Shown: positions 10,935 through 42,597 of the stretch, piece by piece
Layout of the letters: each line of letters begins with the position of its first letter
How positions within the stretch are numbered: position 1 is the first letter of the stretch
Origin: Ferruginibacter sp.
Lineage (GTDB): Bacteria; Bacteroidota; Bacteroidia; Chitinophagales; Chitinophagaceae
Reading direction: 5' to 3'
Assembly: GCA_031416275.1 (NCBI GenBank)
Contig: JANOTH010000119.1
Location: forward strand, 7,676-71,675
DNA: 64,000 bases
Notes under the pieces: generated by a model
What the model was told of the DNA's origin: nothing
Databases searched by the model: none
What the model saw: the letters and a program-made list of their open reading frames with translations, nothing else
Made by a program: the position numbers and the translations under genes

Positions 10935-11411
10935 TTATCCGAATTTATAATGTTGTTCATTTGCTGGAAAGAACAAGTGTGTGATGGAATTTTTAATCTT
11001 CTGTGGAAAAGACATAGGCTCGTGCGCTGGTTGTCCAAAAAATTCAGCCTGCATAATTTTCATTTTAACAAGCACAATTGATTTTTCAGTAATACCATAA
11101 ATATTTTTCTCGGGCTCAATTTCTTCGTTCTCTTCTTTTACAATGATGGCCTTGCCACTTATACAAAGCCTTTCTCCATACCCTTTTTTGTGATAATCTA
11201 AATATGCATAAAATGGATGGTCAATATTTTTTGCAAAGTTTCCATTACACGATGTAAAGAAGTAAATGTTACCATCTTCATCAACACTTATCGTTTGAAT
11301 AACGTTTGTAGGTAATGTTAACTCTGAATTTGTTTCAGATTTAAATAAGGCAACTTTCGTCTCCATTATTTTATCCCGCAAAAATGTAAGGTGTGTATCG
11401 TTGTACTGCAT
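10935..11411 (-). CDS. Divergent pyridoxamine 5'-phosphate oxidase-like / general stress protein 26-like protein
   Basis: Start reassigned to ATG 11411 (MQYNDTHLTFLRDKI, 158 aa); VDEDGNIYFFT and LCISGKAIIV fit the split-barrel FMN-binding family. The longer ORF-track version overlaps TopIB and its promoter. Confidence 0.75.
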   Translation of the reverse strand: MQYNDTHLTFLRDKIMETKVALFKSETNSELTLPTNVIQTISVDEDGNIYFFTSCNGNFAKNIDHPFYAYLDYHKKGYGERLCISGKAIIVKEENEEIEPEKNIYGITEKSIVLVKMKIMQAEFFGQPAHEPMSFPQKIKNSITHLFFPANEQHYKFG

Positions 11412-11436
11412 AAGGTGATTTTTGTAGTTATAAAAA

Positions 11437-11452
11437 TTCAAACGATATACCA
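11437..11452 (-). promoter_or_regulatory. Putative sigma54 promoter of the GSP26-like gene
   Basis: Minus strand TGGTATA-TCGT-TTGAA, 25 nt upstream of ATG 11411. Confidence 0.6.
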
Positions 11453-11491
11453 AATTCATTTTATCGCTAATTGGTCGTTTGACTTTAAATA

Positions 11492-11509
11492 CGTAGAAAG
11501 GTTTACACA
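11492..11509. promoter_or_regulatory. Candidate enhancer (bEBP-binding) dyad
   Basis: CGTAGA-AAGGTT-TACACA between two divergent sigma54-like elements; similar to 33133-33150. Confidence 0.4.
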
Positions 11510-11570
11510 TAGATTGTAGAAAAAACGTTGTTAATGTAAAAAAGCAGGAAGAATTATACTCAATATTGAC

Positions 11571-11586
11571 AGGCACAAAACTTTCA
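11571..11586 (+). promoter_or_regulatory. Putative sigma54 promoter of TopIB
   Basis: AGGCACA-AAAC-TTTCA, 38 nt upstream of ATG 11625. Confidence 0.55.
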
Positions 11587-11624: not shown

Positions 11625-12716
11625 ATGACAGCAGTAGATGAAATGATTGAACTTTTGCCCAAAAAGGATATTGCAAAAATTATTAAAGATCCAATAAAGA
11701 CTGCAGAAGCCGCAAACCTTGTGTATGTAACAGATGCAACGCCCGGTATAGTAAGGCAAAAAAAGGCAAGCGACTTTTTTTATGCACTTGGAAAAGAAAA
11801 ACTAAAAGATGAAATGCAGCTTAAAAGGATAAAAAGCCTTGTAATTCCGCCTGCCTGGGAAAATGTTTGGATCTGCGCTTTAGAAAATGGTCATTTACAG
11901 GCAACAGGTATTGATGTAAAAATGCGGAAACAATATCGATATCACCCCGCATGGAATGCTTTACGCAACCATACAAAATTTTATAGGTTGTTGGAGTTTG
12001 GTAAAGTATTGCCCGCAATAAGGCTGCAACTGGAAAAAGATTTGTCGGTAAAAGACCTCACCCAACAAAAAGTGCTGGCAACCGTGGTTAGTTTAATGGA
12101 GCGCACCAACATACGGGTTGGCAATAATGTTTACGAAAAATTATACGGGTCATTTGGGTTAACAACCTTAAAAGATAAGCATGTACAATTTAATGCCGGC
12201 AGTGTAAAGTTTTCTTTTGTTGGTAAAAAAGGAGTTAAACATGATATCAGTTTAAAGAACAAAAAACTTGCTTCCATTGTTCAAAAATGCAGAGATATTC
12301 CCGGCAAAGAATTGTTTCAATATTACAACCAAGATGGCAGCCGACATAGCATTGACAGCGGTATGGTTAATGAGTACATAAAAAACATTAGCGGTAAAGA
12401 TTTTTCTGCGAAAGATTTTAGAACATGGTCCGGAACAGTGAATGCATTTTTAGCATTTAAAGAAATTGGGTTTGGAGACAAGGAAAGTGTAATAAAGAAA
12501 AATATTGCGCAGGCGCTCGATAAAGTGGCAGAGCATTTGGGTAATACAAGAACAGTATGTAGAAAGTATTACGTGCATCCACTAATTATTTCTTTGTACG
12601 AAAATAAAAGCTTGGATAAATATTTTAACCAGCTCGATAAAATTGAGGAAAATGATGGAAAAGCAGATCTCACACAGGAAGAAAAACTTATCATGAAAAT
12701 ACTTGAATCAAACTAA
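11625..12716 (+). CDS. Bacterial DNA topoisomerase IB
   Basis: 363 aa; IPPAWENVWI, GRKQYRY-like MRKQYRYH, IRVGN (Arg), FVGKKG (Lys), KDFRTW (Arg), LGNT (Asn), CRKYY (Tyr nucleophile). Confidence 0.95.
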   Translation: MTAVDEMIELLPKKDIAKIIKDPIKTAEAANLVYVTDATPGIVRQKKASDFFYALGKEKLKDEMQLKRIKSLVIPPAWENVWICALENGHLQATGIDVKMRKQYRYHPAWNALRNHTKFYRLLEFGKVLPAIRLQLEKDLSVKDLTQQKVLATVVSLMERTNIRVGNNVYEKLYGSFGLTTLKDKHVQFNAGSVKFSFVGKKGVKHDISLKNKKLASIVQKCRDIPGKELFQYYNQDGSRHSIDSGMVNEYIKNISGKDFSAKDFRTWSGTVNAFLAFKEIGFGDKESVIKKNIAQALDKVAEHLGNTRTVCRKYYVHPLIISLYENKSLDKYFNQLDKIEENDGKADLTQEEKLIMKILESN

Positions 12717-12726
12717 AAAATTAATT

Positions 12727-12978
12727 ATGAAAAACATTGAAATTACAATAAAATATGCGGGCTCAGAAATGGCCGTTCATATTTTACCGGAAGAAAACTG
12801 TAATGGTATAATGTACCCGGTAGAAGCAGATGGAAAATACATGTTTACTTTTTTGGAAGATGAAGAGGGTGATTGGAGTGTAATGAAAGAGGCAGATGCT
12901 AGAACCCCCTTAGTAGACGAGGAATTGTATGAGGTTATTTTGAAAAGATTGCATTACGAATTATTATATGCAGCCTAG
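12727..12978 (+). CDS. Small acidic hypothetical protein
   Basis: 83 aa from ATG 12727 (MKNIEITIKY), 10 nt after the TopIB stop; an alternative ATG at 12703 overlaps TopIB. Confidence 0.7.
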   Translation: MKNIEITIKYAGSEMAVHILPEENCNGIMYPVEADGKYMFTFLEDEEGDWSVMKEADARTPLVDEELYEVILKRLHYELLYAA

Positions 12979-13053
12979 AAAATTAGAACCATATATTTAT
13001 TTTACATAATTATGAATGATTAGGTGAAAATTTATTGATAATTTGAAAGGGTT

Positions 13054-14253
13054 ATGCATAGAAAGTTTGATGAGGCAGAACGCCTTAAAGAAGTGAGTTC
13101 CTATAAAATTGAAGATACCCTTACCGAAAAAGAATATGATGATATTGCTTTTCTGGCATCATTAATTTGCGGTACACCCATAGCACTTGTAACCCTTGTA
13201 TATGAAGACAGACAATGGTTTAAAGCTACTGTGGGCACAGAGTTAAAAGAAAATAAAAGAGAACTGTCTTTTTGTACCCACGCCATTTCAGGAGAAGAAG
13301 ATGTAATGGTGGTAGAAGATGCAACAGTTGATAATAGATTTATGCATAATCCACTTGTGCAGGGTGGTCCACAACTAGTTTTTTATGCAGGTGCCCCTAT
13401 TGTAAACAAAAATGGTTACAGCCTAGGCACTGTGTGTGTGTATGATGTAGAAAAAAAATCACTGACTGATGCACAGGTAAAAGGACTAAAAATGTTGTCA
13501 GCACAGGTGATGGGTTTATTGGAATTAAGAAAACAAAATTTTCAGTTAGAAATGATGAAAGACCGACTGGAAATTAGCAATAAAAGCCTGGAAGCATTTG
13601 CTATGGTTTTAGCGCATGATATTAAAACACCCTTGACCAGTGTAACACTTGCAAACAATATGTTGGAAGAAGAGGCCGACGAAGCCAAGCTTGATGTAAA
13701 AGATCTTACAGATATTATTAAGAAAAATGCAGAAAAGATAAAAAGGTTGGTAGATGGAATACTTACCAATGCTAAAATTGCTGAAAAACATAATACACTA
13801 AATGAAATTGAATTGTTATCTTTTTTAGAAAAATTAAGATCTGCATTGTTTTGCCCTAAACCGTTACACTTTATTTATTCTTTAAACATACATAAGTTGT
13901 TTTTTAATGAAATACAACTGGAACAGCTTTTTAATAATTTATTCACCAATGCTATTAGGTATAATGATAAAGAAAGTGTTGAAATAAAGATATCTGCAAA
14001 ACAAAATAATGGGTTTTACAATTTTGAAGTAACTGATAATGGAATGGGAATAGCCATGGAAAACCAATCATCTATTTTTAAACTCTTTGAAACTGTAAAC
14101 GAAAAAGATAATTACGGCCTTGAAAGTAGCGGCATTGGATTAAGCATTGTAAAAAAAATTATTTCAGCTGCAGAAGGTTCTATCAAAATAACATCTAACC
14201 CAGGCGAATACACCACTTTTATTTTTGGATTAAAAATGGCCGAGGAAAAATAG
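13054..14253 (+). CDS. GAF-domain sensor histidine kinase (cytoplasmic)
   Basis: 399 aa; GAF (ICGTPIALVT...FCTHAI...FYAGAPI...LGTVCVYD); H-box AHDIKTPL; NNLFTNAIRY; DNGMGI; GIGLSIVKKII; no TM segment. Confidence 0.93.
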   Translation: MHRKFDEAERLKEVSSYKIEDTLTEKEYDDIAFLASLICGTPIALVTLVYEDRQWFKATVGTELKENKRELSFCTHAISGEEDVMVVEDATVDNRFMHNPLVQGGPQLVFYAGAPIVNKNGYSLGTVCVYDVEKKSLTDAQVKGLKMLSAQVMGLLELRKQNFQLEMMKDRLEISNKSLEAFAMVLAHDIKTPLTSVTLANNMLEEEADEAKLDVKDLTDIIKKNAEKIKRLVDGILTNAKIAEKHNTLNEIELLSFLEKLRSALFCPKPLHFIYSLNIHKLFFNEIQLEQLFNNLFTNAIRYNDKESVEIKISAKQNNGFYNFEVTDNGMGIAMENQSSIFKLFETVNEKDNYGLESSGIGLSIVKKIISAAEGSIKITSNPGEYTTFIFGLKMAEEK

Positions 14254-14411
14254 ACACTCTAAAAAATCTTCTCTCATTTATTTTAAAATGCATTGTTCAT
14301 CAATTGTATTTTATATTTTGTTAAATATCTCTGCATAAAAATTGCAATACCCCTTCAGTGGATAAATTGTAAATTTTATTCCCCGCAATAATCATAAATA
14401 AAATATACAAC

Positions 14412-15188
14412 ATGAGACCAATATGGACAGGCGCCATTGGCTTCGGTTTGGTTAACATACCGGTTAAATTATACAGTGCCACCGAGAGCAGCGATGTTGA
14501 TTTGGATATGCTCGATAAAAAAGACCATAGCCATATTAAGTATTTAAGGGTAAATGAAAAAACCGGTAAAGAAGTGCCTTGGAGCAATATTGTAAAAGGA
14601 TACGATACGGGTAGCAAATATGTAGTGCTGGATGAAGCGGATTTCGAAAAAGCCGGTGCTGAAAAAACAAAGCTGATAGAAATTACTGATTTTGTAAAGC
14701 AGGAAGAAATAGATAGTGTGTATTATGAAACGCCTTATTATTTAGCTCCTGAAAAAAGTGGCGTGCGTCCGTATGCATTGCTGCGGGAAGCATTGATAAA
14801 AACTAAACGAGCTGGTGTGGCGAGTTTTGTAATGAGGAATAAAGAACACCTTGCAATACTAAGAGTATCGGGAGATGCCATTATTTTAAACCGCATTCGT
14901 TTTCATGAAGAGATAAGATCCACAGCAGAGTTGGCATTACCTGCAAAGACAGTTGTAAAACCTGCAGAGTTAAAAATGGCTATTGCTTTGGTGGATCAAC
15001 TATCGGGTAGGTTCGATATTACCGGTTATAAAGACAGTTACACCGCCTCATTAATGAAAGTGATAAATGCAAAAGCAAAAGGCAAAAAAACTGAGGTGCC
15101 TGTTTTAAAAGTGGTACACAGCAAAGCAAAAGATTTAATGGAACAATTAAAAGCCAGCATTGAAACTAAACGCAAAAAAGTCTCTTAA
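14412..15188 (+). CDS. ku: Non-homologous end-joining protein Ku
   Basis: 258 aa; IWTGAIGFGLVNIPVKLYSA, IDSVYYETPYYL, YKDSY, DLMEQLKASI, basic tail. Confidence 0.96.
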   Translation: MRPIWTGAIGFGLVNIPVKLYSATESSDVDLDMLDKKDHSHIKYLRVNEKTGKEVPWSNIVKGYDTGSKYVVLDEADFEKAGAEKTKLIEITDFVKQEEIDSVYYETPYYLAPEKSGVRPYALLREALIKTKRAGVASFVMRNKEHLAILRVSGDAIILNRIRFHEEIRSTAELALPAKTVVKPAELKMAIALVDQLSGRFDITGYKDSYTASLMKVINAKAKGKKTEVPVLKVVHSKAKDLMEQLKASIETKRKKVS

Positions 15189-15190
15189 TT

Positions 15191-15811
15191 ATGAGCCTTT
15201 CTTTATACAATAAAAAAAGAAAATTTAATGATACGCCCGAGCCTGGCGGAAAAATATCTGTTGACAAAACACAATTTTCTTTTGTAGTGCAACGCCACAA
15301 AGCAAGCCATTTACATTACGACTTTAGGTTAGAAATGGATGGTGTGTTAAAAAGCTGGGCGGTGCCAAAAGGCCCATCGTTAAACCCGGCAGATAAACGA
15401 CTGGCTATGATGGTAGAAGATCATCCTTACGATTACAAAGATTTTAAAGGAATAATACCTGAAGGTAATTATGGTGCAGGTATAGTTGAAATTTGGGACC
15501 AAGGCACTTACTCCGCTTTTACAGATGATAAAACAGCTGACCATAAAAAAGTATTAAAAGCAGGATTGAAAGCCGGCAATTTAAAATTTGTTTTAAAAGG
15601 AAAGAAATTAAAGGGTGAATTTGCGCTGGTAAAAATTAAAAATAAAAACAGCGATAAAGACAATGCATGGCTGCTTATAAAACACAACGACAGCTTCGCA
15701 ACAGATAAACTGTACGACAGTGAAAAAGAAACACCGAAAAACTCACCTATAAACAAAGCGTTTGCTGAAAAATTAACATCGGCTGTAAAAAAAAAGCCAA
15801 GTACAGCCTAA
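15191..15811 (+). CDS. ligD: LigD 3'-phosphoesterase (PE) domain ORF; N-terminal part of a split ligD
   Basis: 206 aa; FVVQRHKASHLHYDFRLE, SWAVPKGPS, MVEDHPYDY, YGAGIVEIWDQG, WLLIKH; ends just after a 9-A run. Confidence 0.93.
   Translation: MSLSLYNKKRKFNDTPEPGGKISVDKTQFSFVVQRHKASHLHYDFRLEMDGVLKSWAVPKGPSLNPADKRLAMMVEDHPYDYKDFKGIIPEGNYGAGIVEIWDQGTYSAFTDDKTADHKKVLKAGLKAGNLKFVLKGKKLKGEFALVKIKNKNSDKDNAWLLIKHNDSFATDKLYDSEKETPKNSPINKAFAEKLTSAVKKKPSTA
15787..15796 (+). other. Candidate -1 frameshift / transcriptional slippage site A9G (A_AAA_AAG)
   Basis: PE frame reads GTA AAA AAA AAG CCA. The -1 frame is open from 15769 into the ligase ORF and encodes KAKYSLRANPQKIHNPVKPMLAK. Confidence 0.65.
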
Positions 15812-15849
15812 GGGCAAATCCTCAAAAAATACATAATCCTGTAAAGCCA

Positions 15850-17730
15850 ATGCTGGCTAAAGAAAGTACAGAAGTATTTGATAGCAAAGAATGGATCTAC
15901 GAAATAAAATGGGATGGCTATCGAGCTATTGCAGAGGTTTTGCCAAAAGAAATTAAATTATACTCCCGCAACGGCAACGTCTTTTCGCAAAAATATCCGC
16001 TTATTGCAGAAGAATTAAAGAAGATAAAACATGATGCTATTCTTGATGGTGAGATTGTGGTATTAAATGAAAATGGATTTCCTGATTTTCAGAAAATGCA
16101 GCATTATGAGGATAATACAAACTTCCCCTTATGTTATTATGTATTCGATTTATTGATGTTGGATGGAAATGACATCAAACATTTACCCCTTACAGACAGA
16201 AAGGAACTGCTCAAAAGCATATTACCTAAAAATGAGGTGATTCAATTCTCAGATCATGTTTTGGAAAGCGGAACAGACTTTTTTAATGCAGCACTACAAA
16301 ACAACCTGGAAGGCATAATGGCTAAAAAAACGGACAGCGAATATTATACAGGAAGCCGAAGCAATGAATGGCTGAAAATAAAAAACCATAAAACAGCTGA
16401 TGTAATTATTTGTGGATATACCGCACCAACCGGCAGTAGAAAATATTTTGGCTCCCTTGTTTTAGGCATAATGAAAAATAAAAAACTTGTCCATACCGGG
16501 CATGCAGGAACAGGATATGATGAAGAGACATTAAAAACCATTTTTAATGTATTGCAACCATATGTTCAAAGCAAATCGCCTTTTGCAGAAAAAGTAATTA
16601 CCAATAATAAGGTTACTTGGGTTAAACCCGAAATTGTATGCGAAGTAAAATTTACAGAATGGACAAAAGACGAGAAACTGCGGCACCCCGTTTTTATAAG
16701 AATAAGAGATGATAAAAATATAAAGCAAACAAATATGGAAGCGCAAAAACCTATTGAAAAAATAATTGCGAAGAAGAAAACAGCATCTGCACCGGTAAAA
16801 AAAACAACCTCAAAAAATGATGAACATTTTTTAATACAAGAAGGAAAAAATATTGTTGAAATTACACACCCTGATAAAATATATTTTTCAAATGATAAGG
16901 TTACTAAAAAAATGGTGGCGGAATATTACCAGTCAATTGCATCATACATTTTACCATTTTTAAAAGATAGACCGGAGTCTTTAAAAAGGGATCCTGGCGG
17001 AATAAAAGCAGGCGGTTTTTTTCATAAAGATGCAGGGGAAAATGCACCGCATTTTATCAAGTCATTTGCCGTGCATTCGGAGTCATCAAATAAAGAAATT
17101 GATTACATTATTTGCAACGATAAAATTACCCTTGCTTACTTAAATAATCTGGGTTGTATAGAGCTGAATCCATGGCATTCAACTTTGCAAAAACCTGACA
17201 AACCAGATTATATGATCATTGATATTGACCCATCTGAAAAAAATAATTTTGAGCAGGTAATTGATGCCGCAAATGCATTTAAAAAATTGTTAGATAAAGC
17301 GGGTACAAAAAGTTTTTGTAAAACTTCGGGCGCATCTGGGTTGCATATTTATGTACCTATGAAAAAGAAATATGATTATGAAGAAGTGAAAAATTTTGCG
17401 CATTTGTTGTGCATGATGGTAAGTGAAATGCTACCGGATTTTACAACGCTGGAAAGAAATTTAAAGAAGCGTGGCAACGAAAAAATATACCTCGATTATT
17501 TGCAAAATAGAAGCGGGCAAACTATTGCCTGTGTGTATTCTTTACGACCAAAAGATGGCGCAACAGTATCTATGCCTTTGCACTGGAAAGAAGTAAAAAA
17601 AGGGTTATCACCCAAACAATTTACCATCTTCAATGCAAAAGAAATTATTGAAAAAAGAGCGGATATTTTTAAAGGAGTTTTGGGACCTGCAACAAATATT
17701 GAGAAATGTTTAAAAAAACTGAATGTGTAA
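15850..17730 (+). CDS. ligD: LigD ATP-dependent ligase + primase-like polymerase domains
   Basis: 626 aa from ATG 15850; EIKWDGYR (motif I), LDGEIV, EGIMAKK, WLKIK, LRHPVF; POL domain PDYMIIDIDP, KTSGASGLHIY, YLDYLQN. Confidence 0.95.
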   Translation: MLAKESTEVFDSKEWIYEIKWDGYRAIAEVLPKEIKLYSRNGNVFSQKYPLIAEELKKIKHDAILDGEIVVLNENGFPDFQKMQHYEDNTNFPLCYYVFDLLMLDGNDIKHLPLTDRKELLKSILPKNEVIQFSDHVLESGTDFFNAALQNNLEGIMAKKTDSEYYTGSRSNEWLKIKNHKTADVIICGYTAPTGSRKYFGSLVLGIMKNKKLVHTGHAGTGYDEETLKTIFNVLQPYVQSKSPFAEKVITNNKVTWVKPEIVCEVKFTEWTKDEKLRHPVFIRIRDDKNIKQTNMEAQKPIEKIIAKKKTASAPVKKTTSKNDEHFLIQEGKNIVEITHPDKIYFSNDKVTKKMVAEYYQSIASYILPFLKDRPESLKRDPGGIKAGGFFHKDAGENAPHFIKSFAVHSESSNKEIDYIICNDKITLAYLNNLGCIELNPWHSTLQKPDKPDYMIIDIDPSEKNNFEQVIDAANAFKKLLDKAGTKSFCKTSGASGLHIYVPMKKKYDYEEVKNFAHLLCMMVSEMLPDFTTLERNLKKRGNEKIYLDYLQNRSGQTIACVYSLRPKDGATVSMPLHWKEVKKGLSPKQFTIFNAKEIIEKRADIFKGVLGPATNIEKCLKKLNV

Positions 17731-17811
17731 GGTTGGGAACCTTTTTCCCCAACTAAATTATTCCATTACATTTAGGCATCTTTATTTTATGATTTTATAC
17801 TTAGAGAAGGT

Positions 17812-17827
17812 GGGCATAAAAATTTCA
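17812..17827 (+). promoter_or_regulatory. Putative sigma54 promoter of the tamB operon
   Basis: GGGCATA-AAAA-TTTCA, 59 nt upstream of ATG 17887. Confidence 0.5.
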
Positions 17828-33150: not shown

Positions 33151-33161
33151 CTTTGGGTAAT

Positions 33162-33548
33162 TTAATTAGAAAGCGCATCAACAGTTTTATAAATAATATC
33201 ACTTGTAAAAGGCTTACCAATAAAAAAGTCTGCACCGTTTGCCAAAGCTTTGGCTCTATCATCTCCGGAGTCATGTGCTGTAATCATTACTATTTTACAA
33301 TCGGGATAATTCTTTTTTATGTAAGGAATATAATTTATACCAAGCCCATCGGGTAAATGGTTGTCTAAAAATATAATTTCCGGATGTTGAGTTTTGAGCG
33401 CCTTATCTGCCTCAGACAAAGAATTTACGAAGGCAGTATCTAATTTTTTAAATTTTAATAATCTGCTTAATAAATAACAAATATCTGTTTCATCGTCAAT
33501 AATTAGTGCTTTCAAGGTCATATCATTGAAGTAGTTAACATTTTTCAT
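33162..33548 (-). CDS. Stand-alone response regulator receiver protein
   Basis: LIIDDE, IFLDNHLPDGLG (phospho-Asp), MITAH, FIGKPF. Confidence 0.93.
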   Translation of the reverse strand: MKNVNYFNDMTLKALIIDDETDICYLLSRLLKFKKLDTAFVNSLSEADKALKTQHPEIIFLDNHLPDGLGINYIPYIKKNYPDCKIVMITAHDSGDDRAKALANGADFFIGKPFTSDIIYKTVDALSN

Positions 33549-33572: not shown

Positions 33573-33588
33573 TTCAATATTGTTGCCA
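33573..33588 (-). promoter_or_regulatory. Putative sigma54 promoter of the receiver gene
   Basis: Minus strand TGGCAAC-AATA-TTGAA, 24 nt upstream of ATG 33548. Confidence 0.62.
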
Positions 33589-33797
33589 ACTAAGCATTTT
33601 GAAATACAGTGACTTTCTTAAAAACGCTATAAATATCAAAAAATGTACCTTTCACCGTATAAAATAGCCTCGACAAACGAAAAAACTGCAATTATTAAAC
33701 TTTTAAAATGTTACTAACTTGTGAGTTAGGCTATTATAGATTAACCAACGCAAAAAAAATTGAGGAATTTTTTTATTTTATCGAGGAAAACATTACA

Positions 33798-33813
33798 TGG
33801 TATAATTATAGAA
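33798..33813 (+). promoter_or_regulatory. Putative sigma54 promoter of yihY (and possibly the bEBP gene)
   Basis: TGGTATA-ATTA-TAGAA, 24 nt upstream of ATG 33838. Confidence 0.6.
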
Positions 33814-33837: not shown

Positions 33838-34791
33838 ATGCGTAGAAAAATAACGACGTTTTTCACTTTTTTAAAAGAAGTTTTTGTAGAGTTTATTGGC
33901 GACAACATACTAAAATACAGCGCTTCCCTCGCATATTATACAGTGCTCTCTATTGCGCCGTTGTTGGTTATTTTATTAACTGTTACAGGTTTTTTATTTG
34001 GCAAAGAGGCCATTAACGGCCAACTCTACGGGCAAATCAATAAACTTGTAGGTTCAGATGCTGCGCTGCAAATACAAACATCTATTCAAAACATACATTT
34101 AAACAAAGACAATATTTTTGCAACCACAATCGGTATCATCGTTTTAACCATTGGCGCAACCGGTATTTTTGGAGAAATTCAAGACTCATTAAACAGAATA
34201 TGGGGGTTAAAAATTAAAGCAAAAAAAATATGGTGGAAGGTGCTCATAGATAGGTTGATATCTTTTTCACTTATTTTAAGTTTGGGTTTTGTACTAATCG
34301 TATCGCTTGTGTTAAATGCAATAGCAGCTGCAATAAGCGATAAAATCATTGCTTTACTGCCCGCCTCAGGAGATGTGTTGTTGTTGATAATTGATACTGT
34401 GGTAACACTATTAATAACAACTATATTGTTTGGCTCTATATTTAAGGTATTGCCAGATGCTAAAATAAAATGGAGAGATGTTGCTGTGGGTGCCTTTGTA
34501 ACTGCTTGTTTGTTTTTGTTAGGCAAATATGGCATTGGCTTTTACCTTGGCCAAAGTAAGTTGGGTACTATATATGGAGCGGCGGGCTCTATTATGATTT
34601 TAATGATTTGGGTATATTACACTTCTGCCATACTTTATTTAGGAGCTGTGTTTACAAAAGTTTACGCTACAGACTTTGGCGGAAAAATTTATCCCAGCGA
34701 TTTTTCGGAGTGGATAAAAGTGGAGGAAATACCTGTGCCCGATGTGCATCTTAAAATTGATGATTTAAAAGAGGAAGAAGAAAAACATTAA
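33838..34791 (+). CDS. YihY/virulence factor BrkB family membrane protein
   Basis: ASLAYYTVLSIAPLL, QDSLNRIWG, IFKVLPDAKIKWRDV, YGAAGSIMILMIWVYY. Confidence 0.93.
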   Translation: MRRKITTFFTFLKEVFVEFIGDNILKYSASLAYYTVLSIAPLLVILLTVTGFLFGKEAINGQLYGQINKLVGSDAALQIQTSIQNIHLNKDNIFATTIGIIVLTIGATGIFGEIQDSLNRIWGLKIKAKKIWWKVLIDRLISFSLILSLGFVLIVSLVLNAIAAAISDKIIALLPASGDVLLLIIDTVVTLLITTILFGSIFKVLPDAKIKWRDVAVGAFVTACLFLLGKYGIGFYLGQSKLGTIYGAAGSIMILMIWVYYTSAILYLGAVFTKVYATDFGGKIYPSDFSEWIKVEEIPVPDVHLKIDDLKEEEEKH

Positions 34792-34819
34792 TTGGCATGT
34801 TTTTTAAATTAATAATAAT

Positions 34820-36274
34820 ATGAAAAAGAAGATTTTAATCATTGACGATGACTTGGATATGTGTTTGGTGCTTAGTAAATTTCTTTTAAGAAATGGTTAC
34901 GATGTAGAAACAGCAAACTCAGGTGGCAAGGGTATACTAAAATTTAAGGAAGATAATTTCGATATAGTTATCTGCGATTTTCGTTTAGGAGATAGAGATG
35001 GAAAAGATATTCTTAAAGAAATAAAAAGCATTTCGCCCGATACGATCGTGTTAATAATAACTGGCTATTCAGATATTAAAGTAGCGGTTGATGTTATTAA
35101 AATGGGCGCTTTCGATTATATAACAAAGCCGCTTATTCCCGATGAGGTATTAAGCGTACTTAACAACGCAATTGAGGGCCCCGGTAATGCAGAAATTGCA
35201 GCTCATAATGGTATAAAAAATACAGGAGATAAAACGCAGGGCAACAAAAAAACTGCAATAAATAGTGAGTTTTTGGTAGGCGAAGCGGGCGCCACTAAAG
35301 ATCTTTATAAGCAAATAGAAATAGTAGCGCCAACAAATTACAGCATTATACTTTACGGCGAGAGTGGTACAGGCAAAGAAGTAATTGCAAAAACAATTCA
35401 CAGTTTAAGCGATAGGGCAGATAAGCCATTTATAGCGATGGATTGTGGTACCTTATCAAAAGAACTTTCGGGTAGTGAACTTTTTGGTCACGTGAAAGGT
35501 GCTTTTACCGGTGCCTTAACCGATAAAGAGGGTCACTTTGAACTTGCTAATGGCGGCACTTTGTTTTTAGATGAAGTTGCTAATCTTACCTACGAAATTC
35601 AGGCCTCGTTGCTAAGGGTTATACAGGAAAGAAAATTTAAACGAGTTGGCGGCAACAAAGAAATGCCTGTAGATGTGCGCATCATTGTAGCATCTAACGA
35701 AAACCTGCAGGAGGCTTACCGTAAAGGAAAATTTAGGGAAGATTTGTATCACCGTTTTAATGAGTTTTCTATAAACCTTCCGCCCTTAAGAGACCGTAAA
35801 AAAGATATTCCTTTGTTTGCCGATTTCTTTTTAGAAAAAGCAAAATCAGAATTAAAAAGAGATATAGAAGGCTTTGAGGATGATGTAATGCAGATGTTCA
35901 TTCATTATTCATGGCCGGGTAATTTAAGGGAATTTAGGAACGTGGTTCGCAGATCTGTTTTGCTCACACAGTCAGGTAAAGTACATGCTAAAACATTACC
36001 GTGGGAAATAACAAATACAGATTCATCATCAGCAGCACCACCTGCATTTGCACACCGGCACGAGGAGGAAATGAATGCTTCTAATCATACTACTATTGCT
36101 GTAGCAAAGCCTGTGTACGATCTTAAAGATGCTGCATCAAAAGCTGAGTACGAGGCTATAATGAATGTTTTAAAGCAGGTTAATTTTAATAAAACAAAGG
36201 CAGCCGAAATTTTAAAAATCGATAGAAAAACTTTGTATAATAAAATCAAAGGTTTTGAAGAAATTAATAATTAG
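34820..36274 (+). CDS. Sigma54-dependent transcriptional activator (NtrC-family bEBP: REC-AAA+-HTH)
   Basis: REC (IIDDD, ICDFRL, ITKP); Walker A GESGTGKE; intact GAFTGA; FLDEV; REDLYHR; WPGNLRE; Fis-type HTH NKTKAAEILKIDRKTLYNK. Confidence 0.96.
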   Translation: MKKKILIIDDDLDMCLVLSKFLLRNGYDVETANSGGKGILKFKEDNFDIVICDFRLGDRDGKDILKEIKSISPDTIVLIITGYSDIKVAVDVIKMGAFDYITKPLIPDEVLSVLNNAIEGPGNAEIAAHNGIKNTGDKTQGNKKTAINSEFLVGEAGATKDLYKQIEIVAPTNYSIILYGESGTGKEVIAKTIHSLSDRADKPFIAMDCGTLSKELSGSELFGHVKGAFTGALTDKEGHFELANGGTLFLDEVANLTYEIQASLLRVIQERKFKRVGGNKEMPVDVRIIVASNENLQEAYRKGKFREDLYHRFNEFSINLPPLRDRKKDIPLFADFFLEKAKSELKRDIEGFEDDVMQMFIHYSWPGNLREFRNVVRRSVLLTQSGKVHAKTLPWEITNTDSSSAAPPAFAHRHEEEMNASNHTTIAVAKPVYDLKDAASKAEYEAIMNVLKQVNFNKTKAAEILKIDRKTLYNKIKGFEEINN

Positions 36275-36498: not shown

Positions 36499-36514
36499 TG
36501 GTATAAAATTGGTT
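36499..36514 (+). promoter_or_regulatory. Putative sigma54 promoter of the 36555 gene
   Basis: TGGTATA-AAAT-TGGTT, 40 nt upstream of the ATG. Confidence 0.5.
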
Positions 36515-36554: not shown

Positions 36555-36908
36555 ATGATAAATACCAACTATTTAACTACCCTTAGTTCTGTAATGGAGC
36601 GCTTGCGTTTAAAAAAACAGGATAAAGAATTTATAATGAGCAAAACAGGTTTTGGAACAGAGGCAAAAACCTATTTACCAAGTGAATTAGTTATCATAAA
36701 AACCTACAGGTTTGAAGGTAATTCAGATCCTTCAGACAGTTCAATTTTATACCTTATAGAAGCAAATGATGGAAGTATTGGGTATACGATTGATGCCTAC
36801 GGCGTTTATAGCAACCATGAAGGAGAAGGGTATGATGATTTTATAAGAAAAATACCTGTGATGGAAAGAACAGAACAACAAATATTTGGAGAGGATAAAA
36901 CATCATAA
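36555..36908 (+). CDS. Conserved small hypothetical protein (YRFEGxSDPxD motif)
   Basis: 117 aa; YRFEGNSDPSDSSILYLIE..DG..G...DAYGVY. Confidence 0.8.
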   Translation: MINTNYLTTLSSVMERLRLKKQDKEFIMSKTGFGTEAKTYLPSELVIIKTYRFEGNSDPSDSSILYLIEANDGSIGYTIDAYGVYSNHEGEGYDDFIRKIPVMERTEQQIFGEDKTS

Positions 36909-36927
36909 AATAGTTCAAGCACATATT

Positions 36928-36956
36928 AAAGCCTCACAAATTTTGTGGGGCTTTTT
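36928..36956 (+). terminator. Intrinsic terminator
   Basis: AAAGCCTCACAAA/TTTTGTGGGGCTTTTT hairpin with T-tract. Confidence 0.75.
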
Positions 36957-39361: not shown

Positions 39362-39383
39362 AATTAGGTTGATTATTGTCTAG

Positions 39384-39391
39384 CGAAAGTA
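39384..39391 (-). promoter_or_regulatory. Bacteroidota housekeeping -7 element for the peptidase
   Basis: Minus strand TACTTTCG (near TAnnTTTG), 22 nt upstream of the ATG. Confidence 0.45.
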
Positions 39392-39692
39392 GTGTTTTTG
39401 CATGGATTGCTACATTAGTATAAAGGTTGTTTAAAACTTGATCTTCTAGGGTAAAGTTTGCTTCTTACATCAACAGCACTAACTGAAATTTTTAGGTATC
39501 TGTGGAAAATAACGTTTACAAATGTTGTGTGTTTACCCCAAAATCATCCGCATTAAATAGTACCGCAAATAATTGATAAACTTTTTGCTTTCAAATGAAT
39601 CCAACGTAACAGTTTATAAATCAGTTTAAAAAATAAATTTCGAGCAAATCTTTATTTCATTTTAAAAGGGTTGCAAACATTAACTTGTTTTT

Positions 39693-39708
39693 AGGCGTAA
39701 AACTTGTT
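39693..39708 (+). promoter_or_regulatory. Putative sigma54 promoter of the PAS kinase
   Basis: AGGCGTA-AAAC-TTGTT, 90 nt upstream of ATG 39799. Confidence 0.4.
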
Positions 39709-39798
39709 CGGTTGATTTCCAATTTTCTGGTGTAGGTTATTTTTTGCTCTACTACAGGGTTTAGACTTTCGGCAGATAATAAATGTAAATTTTACTAA

Positions 39799-42597
39799 AT
39801 GAGCGAACAGAACAATAATTTATATTTTCTAAATGGCGGCGGTAGCATGGGCCAACTAACAAGAGAGAAAAATTGGACAACCACACTCTTGGGTGATCCT
39901 GCAACATGGCCGCAAAGTTTGCGCACCATGGTGAGCGTAATGCTGGAAAATCCTTTTGGTATGTACATGGCATGGGGCAAAGACCACATACAATTATACA
40001 ACGATGCATACCGACCCATACTAGGCTCAACAAAACATCCACATGCGCTAGGTAACAGCGCCAAAGAAACCTTTTCTGAAATATGGCATATTATAGAGCC
40101 TATGTTTAATGGGGTACTTGAAGGGAAACCTGTGGGGTTCCCAGATTTTATGCTCCCCCTTAATAGAAATGGCTTTAAAGAAGAATGCTACTTCGATTTT
40201 TCCTACAGCCCTATAAGGCAGGAAAACGGGGAAGTGGGCGGTATTTTAGTTACAGTAATAGAAACTACCAACAAAAAAAAGGCAGAAACAGCCCTTAGAG
40301 AAAGTGAAATAAAATTTAGAACGCTTGCAGATAACATTCCAAACTTTGCCTGGATGGCAGGGGCTGATGGAGCAATATATTGGTACAACAAAAAATGGTA
40401 CGATTACACCGGCACATCACATGAAGACATGAAAGGTTGGGGTTGGCAATCTGTGCACGACCCAAATGAATTGCCATGTGTTTTAGAAAAATGGAATGCT
40501 TCTATAAAAAATGGAAAACCTTTTGAAATGGTATTTCCTATTAGAGGAGCTGATGGAATTTACAGGTCATTTTTAACAAGGGTATTACCCGTAAAAAATG
40601 AGGATGGAGAAATATACCAGTGGTTTGGGAGCAATACTGATATTACTGAACAGAAAAAGTCAGAAGCCGCTTTAATAGAAAGTGAGCATCGATTTAGAAA
40701 CATGGCTGAAGGTTCAGACATTTTAATTGCTGTTGGAGATGAAACCGGCAACGGTACATATTTTAATAAAACATGGCAATGGTTTACAAACAGACCCATG
40801 GAAGATTTGCTCCAGTTTGGTTGGGCAGATTTAATACATGAAGATGATAGACAAACCTTTTTAAATATTTACTTAAGCGCATTTGCTGACAAAAAACCCT
40901 TTGAAGGAGAATTTAGGGTGTTTAATAAAGACAAAGAATACAGATGGGTTATAGCAAAAGGCACACCTAGGTATAATGCAGATGAAACTTTTGCAGGCTA
41001 TGTAAGTTCCTGTGTAGATGTAACTGAGTTAAAAAAAATGCAGAATGCTTTAAAAACAAGTGAGCAACGTTTTAAAAATCTCATTAGGCAGTCACCCATA
41101 CCTACAGTTATATTAAGGGGCGCTGAGCATAAAATAGAAATGGCCAATATCATTGTAGAAAAAAATTGGGGATATGGAGAAGTAGATTTTTCAAACAAAA
41201 CCATTGAAGATCTTTTTCCGGTATTGCGACAAAGAAAGCACGATGAGTTGCTGGATGAAATTTATAAAACAGGAAAGCCATTTAAAGAATATGAATCAGA
41301 GGTGTATTTTAAAGAGGGCGATGGATTTGTGACCTGTTATTTTGATTTTGAGTATGCGCCGCTTTTTGAAAATGATGGCACTGTTTCGGGTATTATTGCT
41401 ACTATTAATGATGTTACTGCACATGTTGAAGCAAGGCGTAAAATTGAAAAGAGTGAACAGAAGTTTCGCTTGCTGGCAGACGCTATGCCACAGCATATTT
41501 GGACCGCAGATGCCGAAGGAAACCTAAATTATTTTAATAAATCTGTATTCGATTTTTCAGGTTTAACGTTAGAGCAAATTAAAAAAGATGGGTGGATACA
41601 AATAGTACATCCTCATGATAGAGATGCAAATCTTAAAACTTGGATGGAAGCTATAGGTACAGGAAAAAATTTTTTATTTGAGCATCGGTTTCGCAGGCAT
41701 GATGGTGAATATAGGTGGCAACTAAGCAGAGCAATACCACAATTAAATAGCAATGGTAAAATACAAATGTGGGTGGGCACGAGTACCGATATACAAGATC
41801 AAAAAAACTCTGCAGCTGAGTTAGAAATGCAGGTTAATGAGCGTACCAAACAAATAGCTCAAAATAATATTGAGCTGGAAAAAATGAACAAGGAGTTGCA
41901 ATCCTTCGCATATATTTCGAGCCACGATTTGCAGGAGCCGTTAAGAAAAATACAGATTTTTTCTTCTCAAATTTTAAAAGACGAATCAGAGAATTTATCT
42001 GAAGCTGGTAAAAACAAGTTTGTAAGAATGCAAAATTCTGCAAGTAGAATGCAATTGCTCATTGAAGATTTGCTCACATATTCCAGAACAAGTACCACAG
42101 AGCGAAGATTTGAAAAAACAGATGTACATAAAATAATAGCTGAAATAAAAGAGGAATTGCAGGAAGAAATTGTGCAAAAAAATGCAGTTATTACTTCCGA
42201 GGGCCAAGGAATTATTACCATTATCCCTTTTCAATTTAGGCAACTTCTGTATAATCTTATTAGCAATTCATTAAAATTTGCATCTCCACATAAGTCGCCA
42301 CATATAGCAATTGTAATACAATGTAAAAAAGGAAAACTGTTACAAAATGAAAAGCTGCGGTTAGATGAAGATTACTGCCATATAAGCGTATCAGATAACG
42401 GTATTGGTTTTGAGCCTCAATACAGTGAAAGAATATTTGAGGTTTTTCAAAGGCTCCACGGAAAGAAGGAATACAGAGGTACAGGCATTGGGCTTGCAAT
42501 TGTAAAAAAAATTGTTGAGAACCATTCAGGGATAATTACAGCAACTGGCCAAATTGACAAGGGGGCTACATTTGATATTTTTATACCGGTTTTATAG
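39799..42597 (+). CDS. Multi-PAS (about 5) cytoplasmic sensor histidine kinase
   Basis: 932 aa; repeated PAS/PAC units (GWGWQSVHDP, FGWADLIHEDD, GWIQIVHPHD, RRHDGEYRW); H-box SSHDLQEPLRKI; NLISNSLKF; DNGIGF; GTGIGLAIVKKI. Confidence 0.94.
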   Translation: MSEQNNNLYFLNGGGSMGQLTREKNWTTTLLGDPATWPQSLRTMVSVMLENPFGMYMAWGKDHIQLYNDAYRPILGSTKHPHALGNSAKETFSEIWHIIEPMFNGVLEGKPVGFPDFMLPLNRNGFKEECYFDFSYSPIRQENGEVGGILVTVIETTNKKKAETALRESEIKFRTLADNIPNFAWMAGADGAIYWYNKKWYDYTGTSHEDMKGWGWQSVHDPNELPCVLEKWNASIKNGKPFEMVFPIRGADGIYRSFLTRVLPVKNEDGEIYQWFGSNTDITEQKKSEAALIESEHRFRNMAEGSDILIAVGDETGNGTYFNKTWQWFTNRPMEDLLQFGWADLIHEDDRQTFLNIYLSAFADKKPFEGEFRVFNKDKEYRWVIAKGTPRYNADETFAGYVSSCVDVTELKKMQNALKTSEQRFKNLIRQSPIPTVILRGAEHKIEMANIIVEKNWGYGEVDFSNKTIEDLFPVLRQRKHDELLDEIYKTGKPFKEYESEVYFKEGDGFVTCYFDFEYAPLFENDGTVSGIIATINDVTAHVEARRKIEKSEQKFRLLADAMPQHIWTADAEGNLNYFNKSVFDFSGLTLEQIKKDGWIQIVHPHDRDANLKTWMEAIGTGKNFLFEHRFRRHDGEYRWQLSRAIPQLNSNGKIQMWVGTSTDIQDQKNSAAELEMQVNERTKQIAQNNIELEKMNKELQSFAYISSHDLQEPLRKIQIFSSQILKDESENLSEAGKNKFVRMQNSASRMQLLIEDLLTYSRTSTTERRFEKTDVHKIIAEIKEELQEEIVQKNAVITSEGQGIITIIPFQFRQLLYNLISNSLKFASPHKSPHIAIVIQCKKGKLLQNEKLRLDEDYCHISVSDNGIGFEPQYSERIFEVFQRLHGKKEYRGTGIGLAIVKKIVENHSGIITATGQIDKGATFDIFIPVL

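What the first reader, a model, noticed from the sequence alone, without database searches (positions are those of the whole stretch)
10935..42597. Candidate sigma54 (RpoN)/bEBP-driven general-stress regulon encoded as one island
Seen in sequence: 16-bp elements with GG at the -25/-24 position and a T-rich/TTG -12 box sit correctly oriented 11-90 nt upstream of most island transcription units. They are at 11437(-) TGGTATATCGTTTGAA, 11571 AGGCACAAAACTTTCA, 17812 GGGCATAAAAATTTCA, 28970(-) TGGCAGTATTTTGGCA, 29139 TGGCATAAATATAGAA, 33573(-) TGGCAACAATATTGAA, 33798 TGGTATAATTATAGAA, 34793 TGGCATGTTTTTTAAA, 36499 TGGTATAAAATTGGTT and 39693 AGGCGTAAAACTTGTT. I did not find them upstream of adk, purN, paaZ, the S46 peptidase or act/cox, several of which carry TAnnTTTG-type elements instead. 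Established: sigma54 binds TGGCACG-N4-TTGCW and needs a GAFTGA bEBP, and one is encoded here (34820). YciF, GSP26, YtxH, YihY, Ku/LigD and low-affinity iron permease genes are typical members of RpoS/SigB/EcfG general-stress regulons in other phyla. Inference: this lineage runs its general stress/desiccation response through RpoN and a local NtrC-like activator, with a relaxed -12 box. I know of no described master regulator of this kind in Bacteroidota, but I cannot check the literature.
Basis: partly seen in the sequence, partly recalled or inferred. Interest (0 to 1): 0.85.

Follow-up and report, generated by a model that had tools for sequence, protein, structure and literature searches.

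The report
Sigma-54 stress island in Ferruginibacter
A freshwater/soil Bacteroidota bacterium (Ferruginibacter) carries a ~35-kb gene island of DNA-break repair, envelope and classic "general stress" genes. The island appears to be switched on as a block from sigma-54-type promoters by its own two-component activator. This wiring is conserved in dozens of related genomes, but I found no paper describing it and no experiment has tested it.

Summary
All ten 16-mers are at the stated coordinates. The loose pattern occurs about once per kb in either orientation, so it proves nothing by itself. Phylogenetic footprinting does. Eight sites (11437-, 11571, 17812, 28970-, 29139, 33573-, 33798, 36499) lie in blocks conserved across up to 80 Chitinophagaceae loci while their flanks diverge. 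Site 34793 is kept only in the closest subclade, and 39693 is unsupported.

The pooled consensus is TGGYA-N6-T-n-G-M. GC at -12 occurs in only 28% of sites; G or C is kept in 91%. The genome has rpoN and a GAFTGA bEBP. The same motif precedes dnaK and groES, which are TSS-mapped sigma-54 targets in Flavobacterium psychrophilum.

A dyad, GKGGAA-N4-TTCCMC, sits 50, 61, 72 or 94 bp upstream of five promoters, which is helical phasing. In this genome, dyad-plus-promoter modules before genes are almost confined to this window, including a new one before an L,D-transpeptidase. TopIB occurs in 25 of 39 genomes with the activator and 1 of 41 without.

This is best read as an accessory, self-contained sigma-54/bEBP stress-protection island, not a proven lineage-wide master regulator.

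The parts
102..1751 (-). L,D-transpeptidase (YkuD + PG-binding).
   Evidence: Pfam; composite dyad + promoter.
1767..1782 (-). -24/-12 promoter AGGCATACAATTTGTA, 15 nt before the ATG, implying a leaderless or near-leaderless mRNA.
   Evidence: Conserved as nGGCAyAnnnTTTGYW, 12-15 nt before the ATG, in 15+ Ferruginibacter genomes.
1860..1875 (.). Dyad GTGGAGAAACTTTCCC, centred 87 bp upstream of the GG of the 1767 promoter.
10935..11396 (-). PNPOx-like (general-stress-protein-26-like) gene.
   Evidence: Pfam PF16242, weak hit.
11437..11452 (-). Promoter TGGTATATCGTTTGAA.
   Evidence: Conserved as TGGTAyAnnnTTTGAA in relatives.
11493..11508 (.). Shared dyad GTAGAAAGGTTTACAC, 50 bp from the 11437 promoter and 72 bp from the 11571 promoter.
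   Evidence: conserved in relatives.
11571..11586 (+). Promoter AGGCACAAAACTTTCA of the TopIB operon.
   Evidence: Conserved as nGGCAyAAnAnTTTCw.
11625..17730 (+). Presumed operon: TopIB, 83-aa ORF, GAF histidine kinase, Ku, LigD phosphoesterase, LigD ligase-polymerase.
   Evidence: Pfam. TopIB-Ku-LigD are adjacent in relatives.
14369..14384 (.). Dyad-like site 28 nt before the ku ATG. Its role is unexplained.
17735..17750 (.). Dyad GGGAACCTTTTTCCCC, 71 bp upstream of the 17812 promoter.
   Evidence: conserved in relatives.
17812..17827 (+). Promoter GGGCATAAAAATTTCA.
   Evidence: Conserved as nGGCAyAATAATTTCw before TamB-like genes that share only ~45-55% identity.
17887..27590 (+). TamB-like protein, Omp85-family protein and a 705-aa unknown. 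A bidirectional terminator lies at 27605-27620.
   Evidence: Pfam; terminator.
27631..28926 (-). Operon: YtxH, holin-X-like membrane protein, 141-aa ORF, 55-aa ORF.
   Evidence: Pfam; synteny in 63 of 80 loci.
28970..28985 (-). Promoter TGGCAGTATTTTGGCA, a canonical GG-N10-GC.
   Evidence: TTGGCA-nn-ATTTT-nG is near-invariant across ~60 genomes.
29039..29075 (.). Enhancer region. Dyad GTGAAATTTTTTCCCC (29039-29054) plus a second site GGAAACATATTTTAC (29061-29075). It is 63 bp from the YtxH promoter and 94 bp from the DUF892 promoter.
29139..29154 (+). Promoter TGGCATAAATATAGAA.
   Evidence: TGGCAT + T-rich box conserved.
29185..31966 (+). Operon: DUF892/YciF-like, PNPOx (GSP26-like), FAD oxidoreductase (DAO), low-affinity iron permease.
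   Evidence: Pfam.
31997..33548 (-). Presumed operon: stand-alone receiver RR128 (33162-33548), DUF2383/PA2169-like ORF, 104-aa sigma-region-2-like ORF, 74-aa ORF. A conserved dyad lies at 33134-33149.
   Evidence: Pfam/NCBIfam; dyad.
33573..33588 (-). Promoter TGGCAACAATATTGAA.
   Evidence: TGGCA-N6-TTG conserved in 58 of 62 loci.
33783..33813 (+). Conserved block GAGGAAAACATTACA|TGGTATAATTATAGAA: a half-dyad abutting the yihY-bEBP promoter (33798-33813).
33838..36274 (+). YihY/BrkB-family membrane protein, then the NtrC-type bEBP (34820-36274: REC D53, GESGTGKE, GAFTGA, HTH_8).
34793..34808 (+). Possible internal promoter TGGCATGTTTTTTAAA, 11 nt before the bEBP ATG.
   Evidence: Conserved only in the closest subclade, L072-L082. 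Doubtful.
36499..36514 (+). Promoter TGGTATAAAATTGGTT.
   Evidence: nGGTAtAAAnTTGG conserved in 45 of 62 loci.
36555..36954 (+). Conserved 117-aa protein of unknown family, plus a terminator at 36928-36954.
39693..39708 (+). Claimed motif AGGCGTAAAACTTGTT before the PAS kinase. Not supported.

Best explanation
The window holds an accessory regulon.

Proposed mechanism (inferred):
1. A histidine kinase phosphorylates the island's own NtrC-type activator (34820-36274; domains REC, AAA+ with GAFTGA, Fis-type HTH).
2. The activator binds 16-bp dyads (GKGGAA-N4-TTCCMC) centred 50-94 bp upstream of the promoter GG, on one face of the helix.
3. ATP hydrolysis opens the sigma-54 closed complex.

The cargo suggests a dormancy, desiccation or general-stress protection programme (inferred from content). 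It comprises TopIB-Ku-LigD end joining, a TamB/Omp85 envelope system, an L,D-transpeptidase, YtxH, YciF-like and GSP26-like proteins, and an iron permease.

The stand-alone receiver RR128 and the yihY-bEBP operon carry the same promoter type, giving feedback (inferred).

Shown here: motif and dyad conservation, geometry, presence of rpoN and the bEBP, phyletic co-occurrence, and confinement of the modules to the island. Inferred: sigma-54 dependence, which protein binds the dyad, the inducing signal, and the physiological role.
For: - rpoN is present, and there are three true bEBPs, one of them in the island. The island bEBP has GAFTGA, Walker A, REC Asp and HTH_8.
- Eight promoter blocks are conserved across up to 80 loci while their flanks diverge.
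- In the 231 pooled sites (unique as 22-mers), T12 is present in 98% and G14 in 84%; GG was required by the selection. Collapsed to 175 distinct 16-mers, G14 or C15 is kept in 91%.
- The same PWM hits dnaK, groES, a PorP/SprF gene and OMP genes elsewhere in the genome. These are the same classes as the 5'-end-mapped sigma-54 SM4 promoters of F. psychrophilum (PMC9723704).
- The dyad is found upstream of YtxH 50/52, DUF892 16/16, TamB-like 14/18, TopIB 10/16 and PNPOx 7/10. Pooled over all eight families, 40% of upstream regions score >=10 against 0.9% of shuffles. Median offsets are 50, 61, 71-72 and 94 bp.
- Six of about seven gene-proximal dyad-plus-promoter composites in the 3.35-Mb genome lie in this window.
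- TopIB occurs in 25/39 genomes with the bEBP versus 1/41 without (p = 9e-10). The TamB-like gene occurs in 25/39 versus 6/41.
- The TamB module is found in 12/21 bEBP+ versus 0/5 bEBP- genomes by PWM, and 16/21 versus 0/5 by eye.
- The bEBP HTH is invariant in the orthologues with a complete C-terminus (two truncated), matching the conserved dyad.
- Synteny of the YtxH operon, RR128, yihY-bEBP and h117 holds in 61-69 of 80 loci.
Against:
- The canonical -12 GC is present in only 28% of sites. The TamB and TopIB promoters use TTTC, and DUF892 in distant relatives has only a T-run.
- GG invariance is partly imposed by how sites were collected.
- The dyad alone is barely enriched in non-coding DNA genome-wide.
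- The regulatory promoters (RR128, yihY, h117) lack a canonical dyad at activator distance.
- Two dyads (14369, 33134) have no promoter at the expected offset.
- One genome without a bEBP orthologue still has the YtxH promoter (G017).
- The phyletic tests are not corrected for phylogeny.
- The genome is a 93%-complete, 410-contig MAG, so members outside the island could be missed.
Confidence: 0.66

Rival explanations
1. The conserved 16-mers and dyads are real regulatory sites, but the 16-mers are not sigma-54 promoters. For example, TTGGCA could act as a -35-like element of a sigma-70-family or ECF promoter, or as an operator of an unknown factor.
For: - The -12 GC is often absent.
- The sigma-70 scan pairs TTGGCA with -10-like hexamers at 33589 and 34792.
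- A sigma-region-2-like ORF sits in the island.
- No TSS data are available.
Against: - The conserved block is one contiguous 16-mer with fixed GG-N8-T-n-G spacing. Positions where a -10 would lie are not conserved.
- Bacteroidota sigma-A uses TAnnTTTG, not TATAAT (PMC9723704).
- The same motif precedes dnaK and groES, which are mapped sigma-54 targets in F. psychrophilum.
- No complete ECF sigma is encoded in the island.
Confidence: 0.1
2. The promoters are sigma-54-dependent, but the island bEBP is not the (only) activator. One of the two other bEBPs (contigs C80, C400) or another dyad-binding protein drives some or all units. This applies especially to RR128, yihY and h117, which lack the canonical dyad.
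For: - Three bEBPs are present.
- RR128, YihY and h117 show dyad hits in only 3/58, 1/42 and 2/45 promoters.
- G017 keeps a YtxH -24/-12 promoter without a bEBP orthologue.
Against: - The island bEBP is tightly syntenic with these units.
- Cargo genes and the TamB module co-occur with it phyletically.
- Its HTH is invariant, matching the conserved dyad.
- The island encodes no other DNA-binding protein.
Confidence: 0.12
3. The sigma-54/bEBP architecture is right, but the programme is a specific response rather than a general-stress response. Candidates are DNA-damage repair with envelope remodelling, iron or oxidative stress, or a resting-cell programme.
For: - The regulon is small and local.
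- Much of the cargo is DNA repair, envelope and ferritin-like or iron proteins.
- The island is absent from half of the congeners.
Against: The gene set overlaps the RpoS, SigB and EcfG regulons: YtxH, YciF, GSP26 and Ku/LigD. NHEJ is under the general-stress sigma RpoE2 in S. meliloti (PMC6379672). The inducing signal is unknown either way.
Confidence: 0.08
4. The motifs are chance matches in AT-rich intergenic DNA.
For: The loose pattern occurs ~1/kb in both orientations. Site 39693 is unsupported.
Against: Eight sites are conserved amid divergent flanks. There is orientation bias, a shuffle control and coupling to the dyad.
Confidence: 0.02

Closest known systems
Sigma-54 (motif SM4) regulon of Flavobacterium psychrophilum, mapped by 5'-end RNA-seq (Guerin et al. 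2021, PMC9723704)
   Same: It is in the same phylum and has -24/-12 promoters and three bEBPs. Its targets include groES-groEL, dnaK, envelope and exported proteins and SprF-type genes. The same gene classes carry the motif outside the island here.
   Different: That regulon is chaperone, envelope and gliding centred and scattered around the chromosome. No Ku/LigD, TopIB, YtxH or YciF cargo is listed in the parts of that paper I read (its sigma-54 text and the listed selection of SM4 promoters); nor is a dedicated island or a defined enhancer dyad. The island bEBP here is a clade-specific accessory gene.
Classical NtrC-family two-component sigma-54 activators (NtrC, ZraR, AtoC; also the stress or repair-dedicated PspF and RtcR)
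   Same: The domain order is REC, AAA+ (GAFTGA), HTH_8. It acts through dyad enhancers upstream of -24/-12 promoters, with divergent promoter pairs sharing one enhancer and probable autoregulation.
   Different: All NCBIfam equivalog scores are far below their cut-offs (for example ntrC 376 versus 558.6), so this is not an orthologue of any named activator. The enhancers lie closer (50-94 bp), and the -12 box is relaxed. The cargo is stress-protection and NHEJ genes.
General stress regulons run by alternative sigma factors (RpoS; SigB; EcfG/PhyR-NepR, including RpoE2-controlled NHEJ in Sinorhizobium meliloti, PMC6379672)
   Same: The gene content overlaps: YtxH, YciF/DUF892, GSP26-like PNPOx, Ku and LigD, and an L,D-transpeptidase.
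   Different: Control here is by sigma-54 plus an ATPase activator, not by a dedicated sigma-70-family stress sigma with partner switching. The regulon is a ~25-30-gene island, not a dispersed regulon of many genes scattered around the chromosome. The stress induction is untested.

Membership tests
Sigma-54-dependent (-24/-12) promoter | GG at -24 with fixed spacing to the -12 element (GG-N10-GC frame). | tested here: met
   In the 231 unique orthologous sites the frame is fixed, with T12 98%, A5 97% and G14 84%. GG was required by the selection.
Sigma-54-dependent (-24/-12) promoter | GC dinucleotide at -12. | tested here: inconclusive
   GC is present in 49/175 distinct 16-mers, and G14 or C15 in 160/175. 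The TamB and TopIB promoters use TTTC.
Sigma-54-dependent (-24/-12) promoter | rpoN is encoded in the genome. | tested here: met
   PF04552 hit at 182 bits in a 522-aa open frame on contig C199.
Sigma-54-dependent (-24/-12) promoter | Transcription starts ~11 nt downstream of -12 and is lost without rpoN or the bEBP. | not testable with these tools
The organism is an uncultured MAG.
Sigma-54-dependent (-24/-12) promoter | The same motif sits before genes with experimentally mapped sigma-54 promoters in the phylum. | tested here: met
   dnaK has TGGCACAATGATTGAA, groES has TGGTATAATATTAGAC, and a PorP/SprF gene also carries the motif, compared with Table 2 of PMC9723704.
NtrC-type bacterial enhancer-binding protein | AAA+ sigma-54 interaction domain with GAFTGA and a Walker A motif. 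| tested here: met
   PF00158 at 3.5e-65; GESGTGKE and GAFTGA are read in the translation.
NtrC-type bacterial enhancer-binding protein | N-terminal receiver with a phospho-acceptor Asp, and a C-terminal Fis-type HTH. | tested here: met
   PF00072 and PF02954 hits; D53 lies in the VICDF context.
NtrC-type bacterial enhancer-binding protein | Binds dyad enhancers upstream of its target promoters. | tested here: inconclusive
   A conserved dyad sits at phased offsets of 50-94 bp before five units. No binding data exist, and three units lack it.
NtrC-type bacterial enhancer-binding protein | A cognate histidine kinase. | tested here: inconclusive
   Relatives encode a kinase downstream of h117. 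This window instead has a GAF kinase inside the TopIB operon and a non-syntenic PAS kinase.
General stress response regulon | Gene content typical of RpoS, SigB or EcfG regulons. | tested here: met
   YtxH, DUF892, PNPOx-like (x2), Ku, LigD and YkuD by Pfam. Their membership in those regulons rests on the literature and on my own knowledge (PMC6379672 for NHEJ).
General stress response regulon | A global, dispersed regulon under a master regulator present throughout the lineage. | tested here: not met
   Composite modules are confined to this window. The bEBP is present in 39 of 80 other sampled congeners.
General stress response regulon | Induction by multiple stresses or in stationary phase. 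| not testable with these tools
   No expression data are available.

The most novel reading that the evidence does not exclude
Chitinophagaceae lack RpoS, SigB and EcfG-type stress sigmas (by my own knowledge; not checked here) and instead carry a portable general-stress, desiccation or dormancy cassette. It would be a self-contained sigma-54/bEBP island that brings its own activator, receiver, enhancers and promoters together with TopIB-Ku-LigD repair and envelope remodelling genes. Its promoters would have a relaxed -12 element and sometimes give leaderless transcripts. It may be tuned by a receiver plus a sigma-region-2-like mimic, reminiscent of PhyR/NepR logic.
Probability: 0.3. Interest if true: 0.75.

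Novelty: new variant of a known kind. Interest (0 to 1): 0.6.

Why it matters
I know of no defined general-stress regulator in Bacteroidota, which are abundant in soil, freshwater and host habitats. If this reading is right, a stress and DNA-repair gene set that other phyla place under RpoS, SigB or EcfG is here wired to sigma-54 and an ATP-dependent activator, and it moves as one accessory island.

The reading yields concrete, testable parts:
- a promoter consensus with a relaxed -12 box;
- a 16-bp enhancer dyad with phased spacing;
- a candidate activator;
- cultured carriers in which to test them (Ferruginibacter yonginensis, Ginsengibacter hankyongi, Hanamia caeni, Foetidibacter luteolus).

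It also ties bacterial topoisomerase IB, whose role I believe is unclear, to Ku/LigD end joining through shared regulation and operon structure.

Tried and rejected
- A first PWM grown from genome-wide hits drifted to accept TTGCA at -24. I replaced it with a PWM built from orthologous sites.
- The dyad PWM alone, applied genome-wide, showed only ~2-3x non-coding enrichment with many coding hits. Only the composite with a promoter is specific, and even there the downstream-mirror control is high at low thresholds (30 versus 21). Separation appears only at promoter score >=12 (11 versus 2).
- The PAS-kinase site 39693 showed no conservation, and the gene is not syntenic even in 90%-identical relatives.
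- A covariation test between the bEBP recognition helix and the dyad was uninformative, because the HTH is invariant in all 80 orthologues.
- In YtxH loci of genomes lacking the bEBP, most lack the promoter, but G017 keeps it and orthology is uncertain. This is only weak support.
- Literature searches found no description of this island.

Full report
**Observation.** All ten 16-mers are at the stated coordinates and point towards a start codon 11-106 nt away.
- a PNPOx-like gene;
- TopIB, a GAF kinase, Ku, LigD-PE and LigD;
- a TamB-like protein, an Omp85-family protein and a 705-aa unknown;
- YtxH, a holin-X-like protein and two small ORFs;
- DUF892/YciF-like, PNPOx, DAO and a low-affinity iron permease;
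- a stand-alone receiver (RR128), DUF2383 and two small ORFs;
- YihY/BrkB and an NtrC-type bEBP;
- a conserved 117-aa unknown (h117).

The genome is a 3.35-Mb, 410-contig, 36% G+C MAG. Record titles of near relatives place it in Ferruginibacter, family Chitinophagaceae.

**Is it more than chance?** The loosest pattern that fits all ten sites occurs about once per kb of intergenic DNA in either orientation, so it carries no weight. Tighter forms do:
- TGGYA-N6-T[TAG]G occurs 54 times in sense and 25 times in antisense orientation in upstream regions genome-wide. Many hits lie 35-65 nt from a start codon.
- TGGYANNNNNNTNGMW occurs 12 times in the window against 5.97 +/- 2.16 in shuffles, and no shuffle of 100 reached 12.
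- With a PWM built from orthologous sites, 28 of 33 non-coding hits scoring >=14 point at a gene start within 250 nt.

**Phylogenetic footprinting is the main evidence.** Orthologues of the island bEBP (52-91% identity) were fetched with their flanks from 14 relatives and then from 80 Chitinophagaceae loci. Synteny of [h141-holinX-YtxH]<-, <-RR128, yihY-bEBP-> and h117-> holds in 61-69 of the 80 loci. Variable cargo sits between these units. In alignments of the upstream regions the flanks are scrambled but the 16-mers stand out:
- YtxH: TTGGCA-nn-ATTTT-nG (52/64).
- RR128: TGGCA-N6-TTG (58/62).
- yihY: CATGGTATAATTATAG (42/69, in the Ferruginibacter clade).
- h117: nGGTAtAAAnTTGG (45/62).
- DUF892: TGGCAT plus a T-rich box (16/19).

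Separate genus-wide searches show the same for three more genes:
- the TamB-like gene: nGGCAyAATAATTTCw, although the proteins share only ~45-55% identity;
- TopIB: nGGCAyAAnAnTTTCw;
- the divergent PNPOx gene: TGGTAyAnnnTTTGAA.

Eight of the ten claimed sites are thus validated. Site 34793 is conserved only in the 9-10 nearest relatives, though with divergent flanks. Site 39693 is not conserved, has G at the near-invariant A5, and its gene is not syntenic.

**Is it sigma-54?** The pooled matrix from the 231 sites (unique as 22-mers) is T-G-G-Y-A-n-A-A-w-w-w-T-n-G-M-W. Among the 175 distinct 16-mers, the canonical -12 GC is present in only 28%, but G14 or C15 is kept in 91%. Gene families differ in which base they keep: TTGAA, TAGC, TGGC or TTTC. 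So "relaxed -12 box" is an accurate description.

Other evidence points the same way:
- rpoN is present.
- The genome has three true bEBPs.
- The island bEBP has REC (D53), GESGTGKE, GAFTGA and HTH_8, but reaches no NCBIfam equivalog cut-off.
- Outside the island the same PWM finds dnaK, groES, a PorP/SprF gene, OmpA and OMP-barrel genes and a YkuD gene.
- In Flavobacterium psychrophilum, 5'-end mapping assigned a -24/-12 motif (SM4) to groES-groEL, dnaK, grpE-dnaJ, lon, clpB, htpG, skp and the remFG-sprCDBF operon, and promoter mutagenesis supported it (PMC9723704).
- A 2025 comparative study also predicts sigma-54 control of chaperones in Bacteroidota (PMC12316311).

This positive control ties the motif class to sigma-54 in this phylum. 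From my own knowledge, T-tracts between -24 and -12 strengthen sigma-54 binding in enterobacterial promoters, which fits the conserved ATTTT.

**Enhancer.** A 16-bp dyad, G-K-G-G-A-A-N4-T-T-C-C-M-C, recurs upstream of the cargo promoters:
- YtxH 50/52, median offset 61 bp from dyad centre to GG.
- DUF892 16/16, offset 94 bp.
- TamB-like 14/18, offset 71 bp.
- TopIB 10/16, offset 72 bp.
- PNPOx 7/10, offset 50 bp.

Pooled over all eight promoter families, 40% of upstream regions score >=10, against 0.9% of shuffled regions. The offsets differ by multiples of about 10.5-11 bp, which places activator and promoter on one face of the helix.

In the window the dyads at 11493 and 29039 each lie between a divergent promoter pair, and the dyad at 17735 precedes the TamB promoter. 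The bEBP HTH (NKTKAAEILKIDRKTLYNKIK) is invariant in the orthologues with a complete C-terminus (two are truncated), which is consistent with a conserved site.

**Scope.** In the whole MAG, dyad-plus-promoter composites in front of genes are almost all in this window. One is new, at 1767(-) with a dyad at 1860, before an L,D-transpeptidase (102-1751). That promoter is conserved in 15+ genomes and lies only 12-15 nt from the ATG, implying leaderless transcripts. The same geometry would apply to 34793.

The island is accessory:
- The bEBP is present in 39 of 80 other sampled congeners.
- TopIB is present in 25/39 bEBP+ versus 1/41 bEBP- genomes (p = 9e-10).
- The TamB-like gene is present in 25/39 versus 6/41 (p = 8e-6).
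- DUF892 shows the same trend.
- The TamB upstream module is found in 12/21 bEBP+ versus 0/5 bEBP- genomes by PWM (p = 0.04), and 16/21 versus 0/5 by eye.

These tests are not corrected for phylogeny.

**Interpretation.** The best reading is a self-contained sigma-54/bEBP regulon of about nine units.
- Shown: conservation, geometry, component presence, co-occurrence and locality.
- Inferred: sigma-54 dependence, bEBP-dyad binding, feedback through RR128 and yihY-bEBP, and a dormancy, desiccation or general-stress role.

The role is inferred from cargo that in other phyla belongs to the RpoS, SigB or EcfG regulons. For example, NHEJ is under RpoE2 in S. meliloti (PMC6379672). The "master regulator of the lineage" claim is not supported.

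**Unexplained.**
- RR128, yihY and h117 promoters lack a canonical dyad at activator distance.
- The yihY promoter is abutted by a conserved half-dyad.
- Dyads at 14369 (28 nt before ku) and 33134 (between RR128 and DUF2383, conserved) have no promoter at the expected offset.

**Literature and limits.** Searches found no description of this island. Two earlier notes of this scan on other genomes reach the same reading. They are not independent evidence.

Noticed in passing
window 32300-32614 (-): The 104-aa ORF in the RR128 operon has weak similarity to region 2 only of Bacteroidetes-type ECF sigma factors (TIGR02985, E = 2.6e-6, profile positions 3-84 of 162, far below the cut-off). It could be a sigma-region-2-only protein next to a stand-alone receiver, reminiscent of PhyR-type sigma mimicry.
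   Followed up: partly
It has a near-canonical -24/-12 promoter (1767-1782, minus strand) only 15 nt from its ATG and a dyad 87 bp upstream. The promoter is conserved in 15+ congeners at 12-15 nt from the ATG, implying leaderless sigma-54 transcripts.
   Followed up: yes
window 14369-14384 and 33134-33149: Two dyad-like sites have no promoter at activator distance. One lies 28 nt before the ku start codon. The other lies in the 81-nt gap between RR128 and DUF2383 and is conserved in close relatives. They could be operators, downstream enhancers or internal control points.
   Followed up: partly
window 33783-33813: The yihY-bEBP promoter is part of a ~31-nt conserved block, GAGGAAAnnATTACA|TGGTATAATTATAG. 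A half-dyad therefore abuts the -24 element, which could be an autoregulatory site. A second TGAGGAA half-site lies ~35 nt further upstream in relatives.
   Followed up: partly
window 33555-33572 (minus strand, just downstream of the RR128 promoter): A GTAGAAA half-site about 10-14 nt after the -12 element, near the expected start site, recurs in most of the sampled RR128 promoter rows I inspected by eye.
   Followed up: no
L196-L220 (TopIB loci of relatives): In relatives, TopIB is nearly always in one operon with Ku-LigD, or behind DUF892-iron permease, DAO or an SDR gene. With one exception it occurs only in genomes that carry the island bEBP (25 of 26 among the 80 sampled congeners). This suggests a functional link between TopIB and end joining.
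   Followed up: partly
L093-L115 and other relatives, downstream of h117: Many relatives encode a histidine kinase right after h117 that this window and its closest relatives lack. Here the only kinase inside the regulon is the GAF kinase in the TopIB operon (13054-14253).
   Followed up: no
L233 (G000 C222:6945-8852) and L236 (G000 C349:3852-4139): dnaK and groES of this genome are preceded by TGGCACAATGATTGAA (45 nt from motif start to the ATG) and TGGTATAATATTAGAC (71 nt). So heat-shock chaperones appear sigma-54-dependent here, as in Flavobacterium psychrophilum.
   Followed up: partly
window 27605-27620: A bidirectional terminator-like hairpin lies between the convergent TamB-Omp85-h705 unit and the YtxH operon. 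Another terminator lies at 36928-36954, after h117.
   Followed up: no
window 15769-15852: Another first-reader note proposes a -1 frameshift joining the LigD-PE and LigD ligase ORFs at an A-run. I did not examine it. Relatives also show separate PE and ligase-polymerase hits.
   Followed up: no
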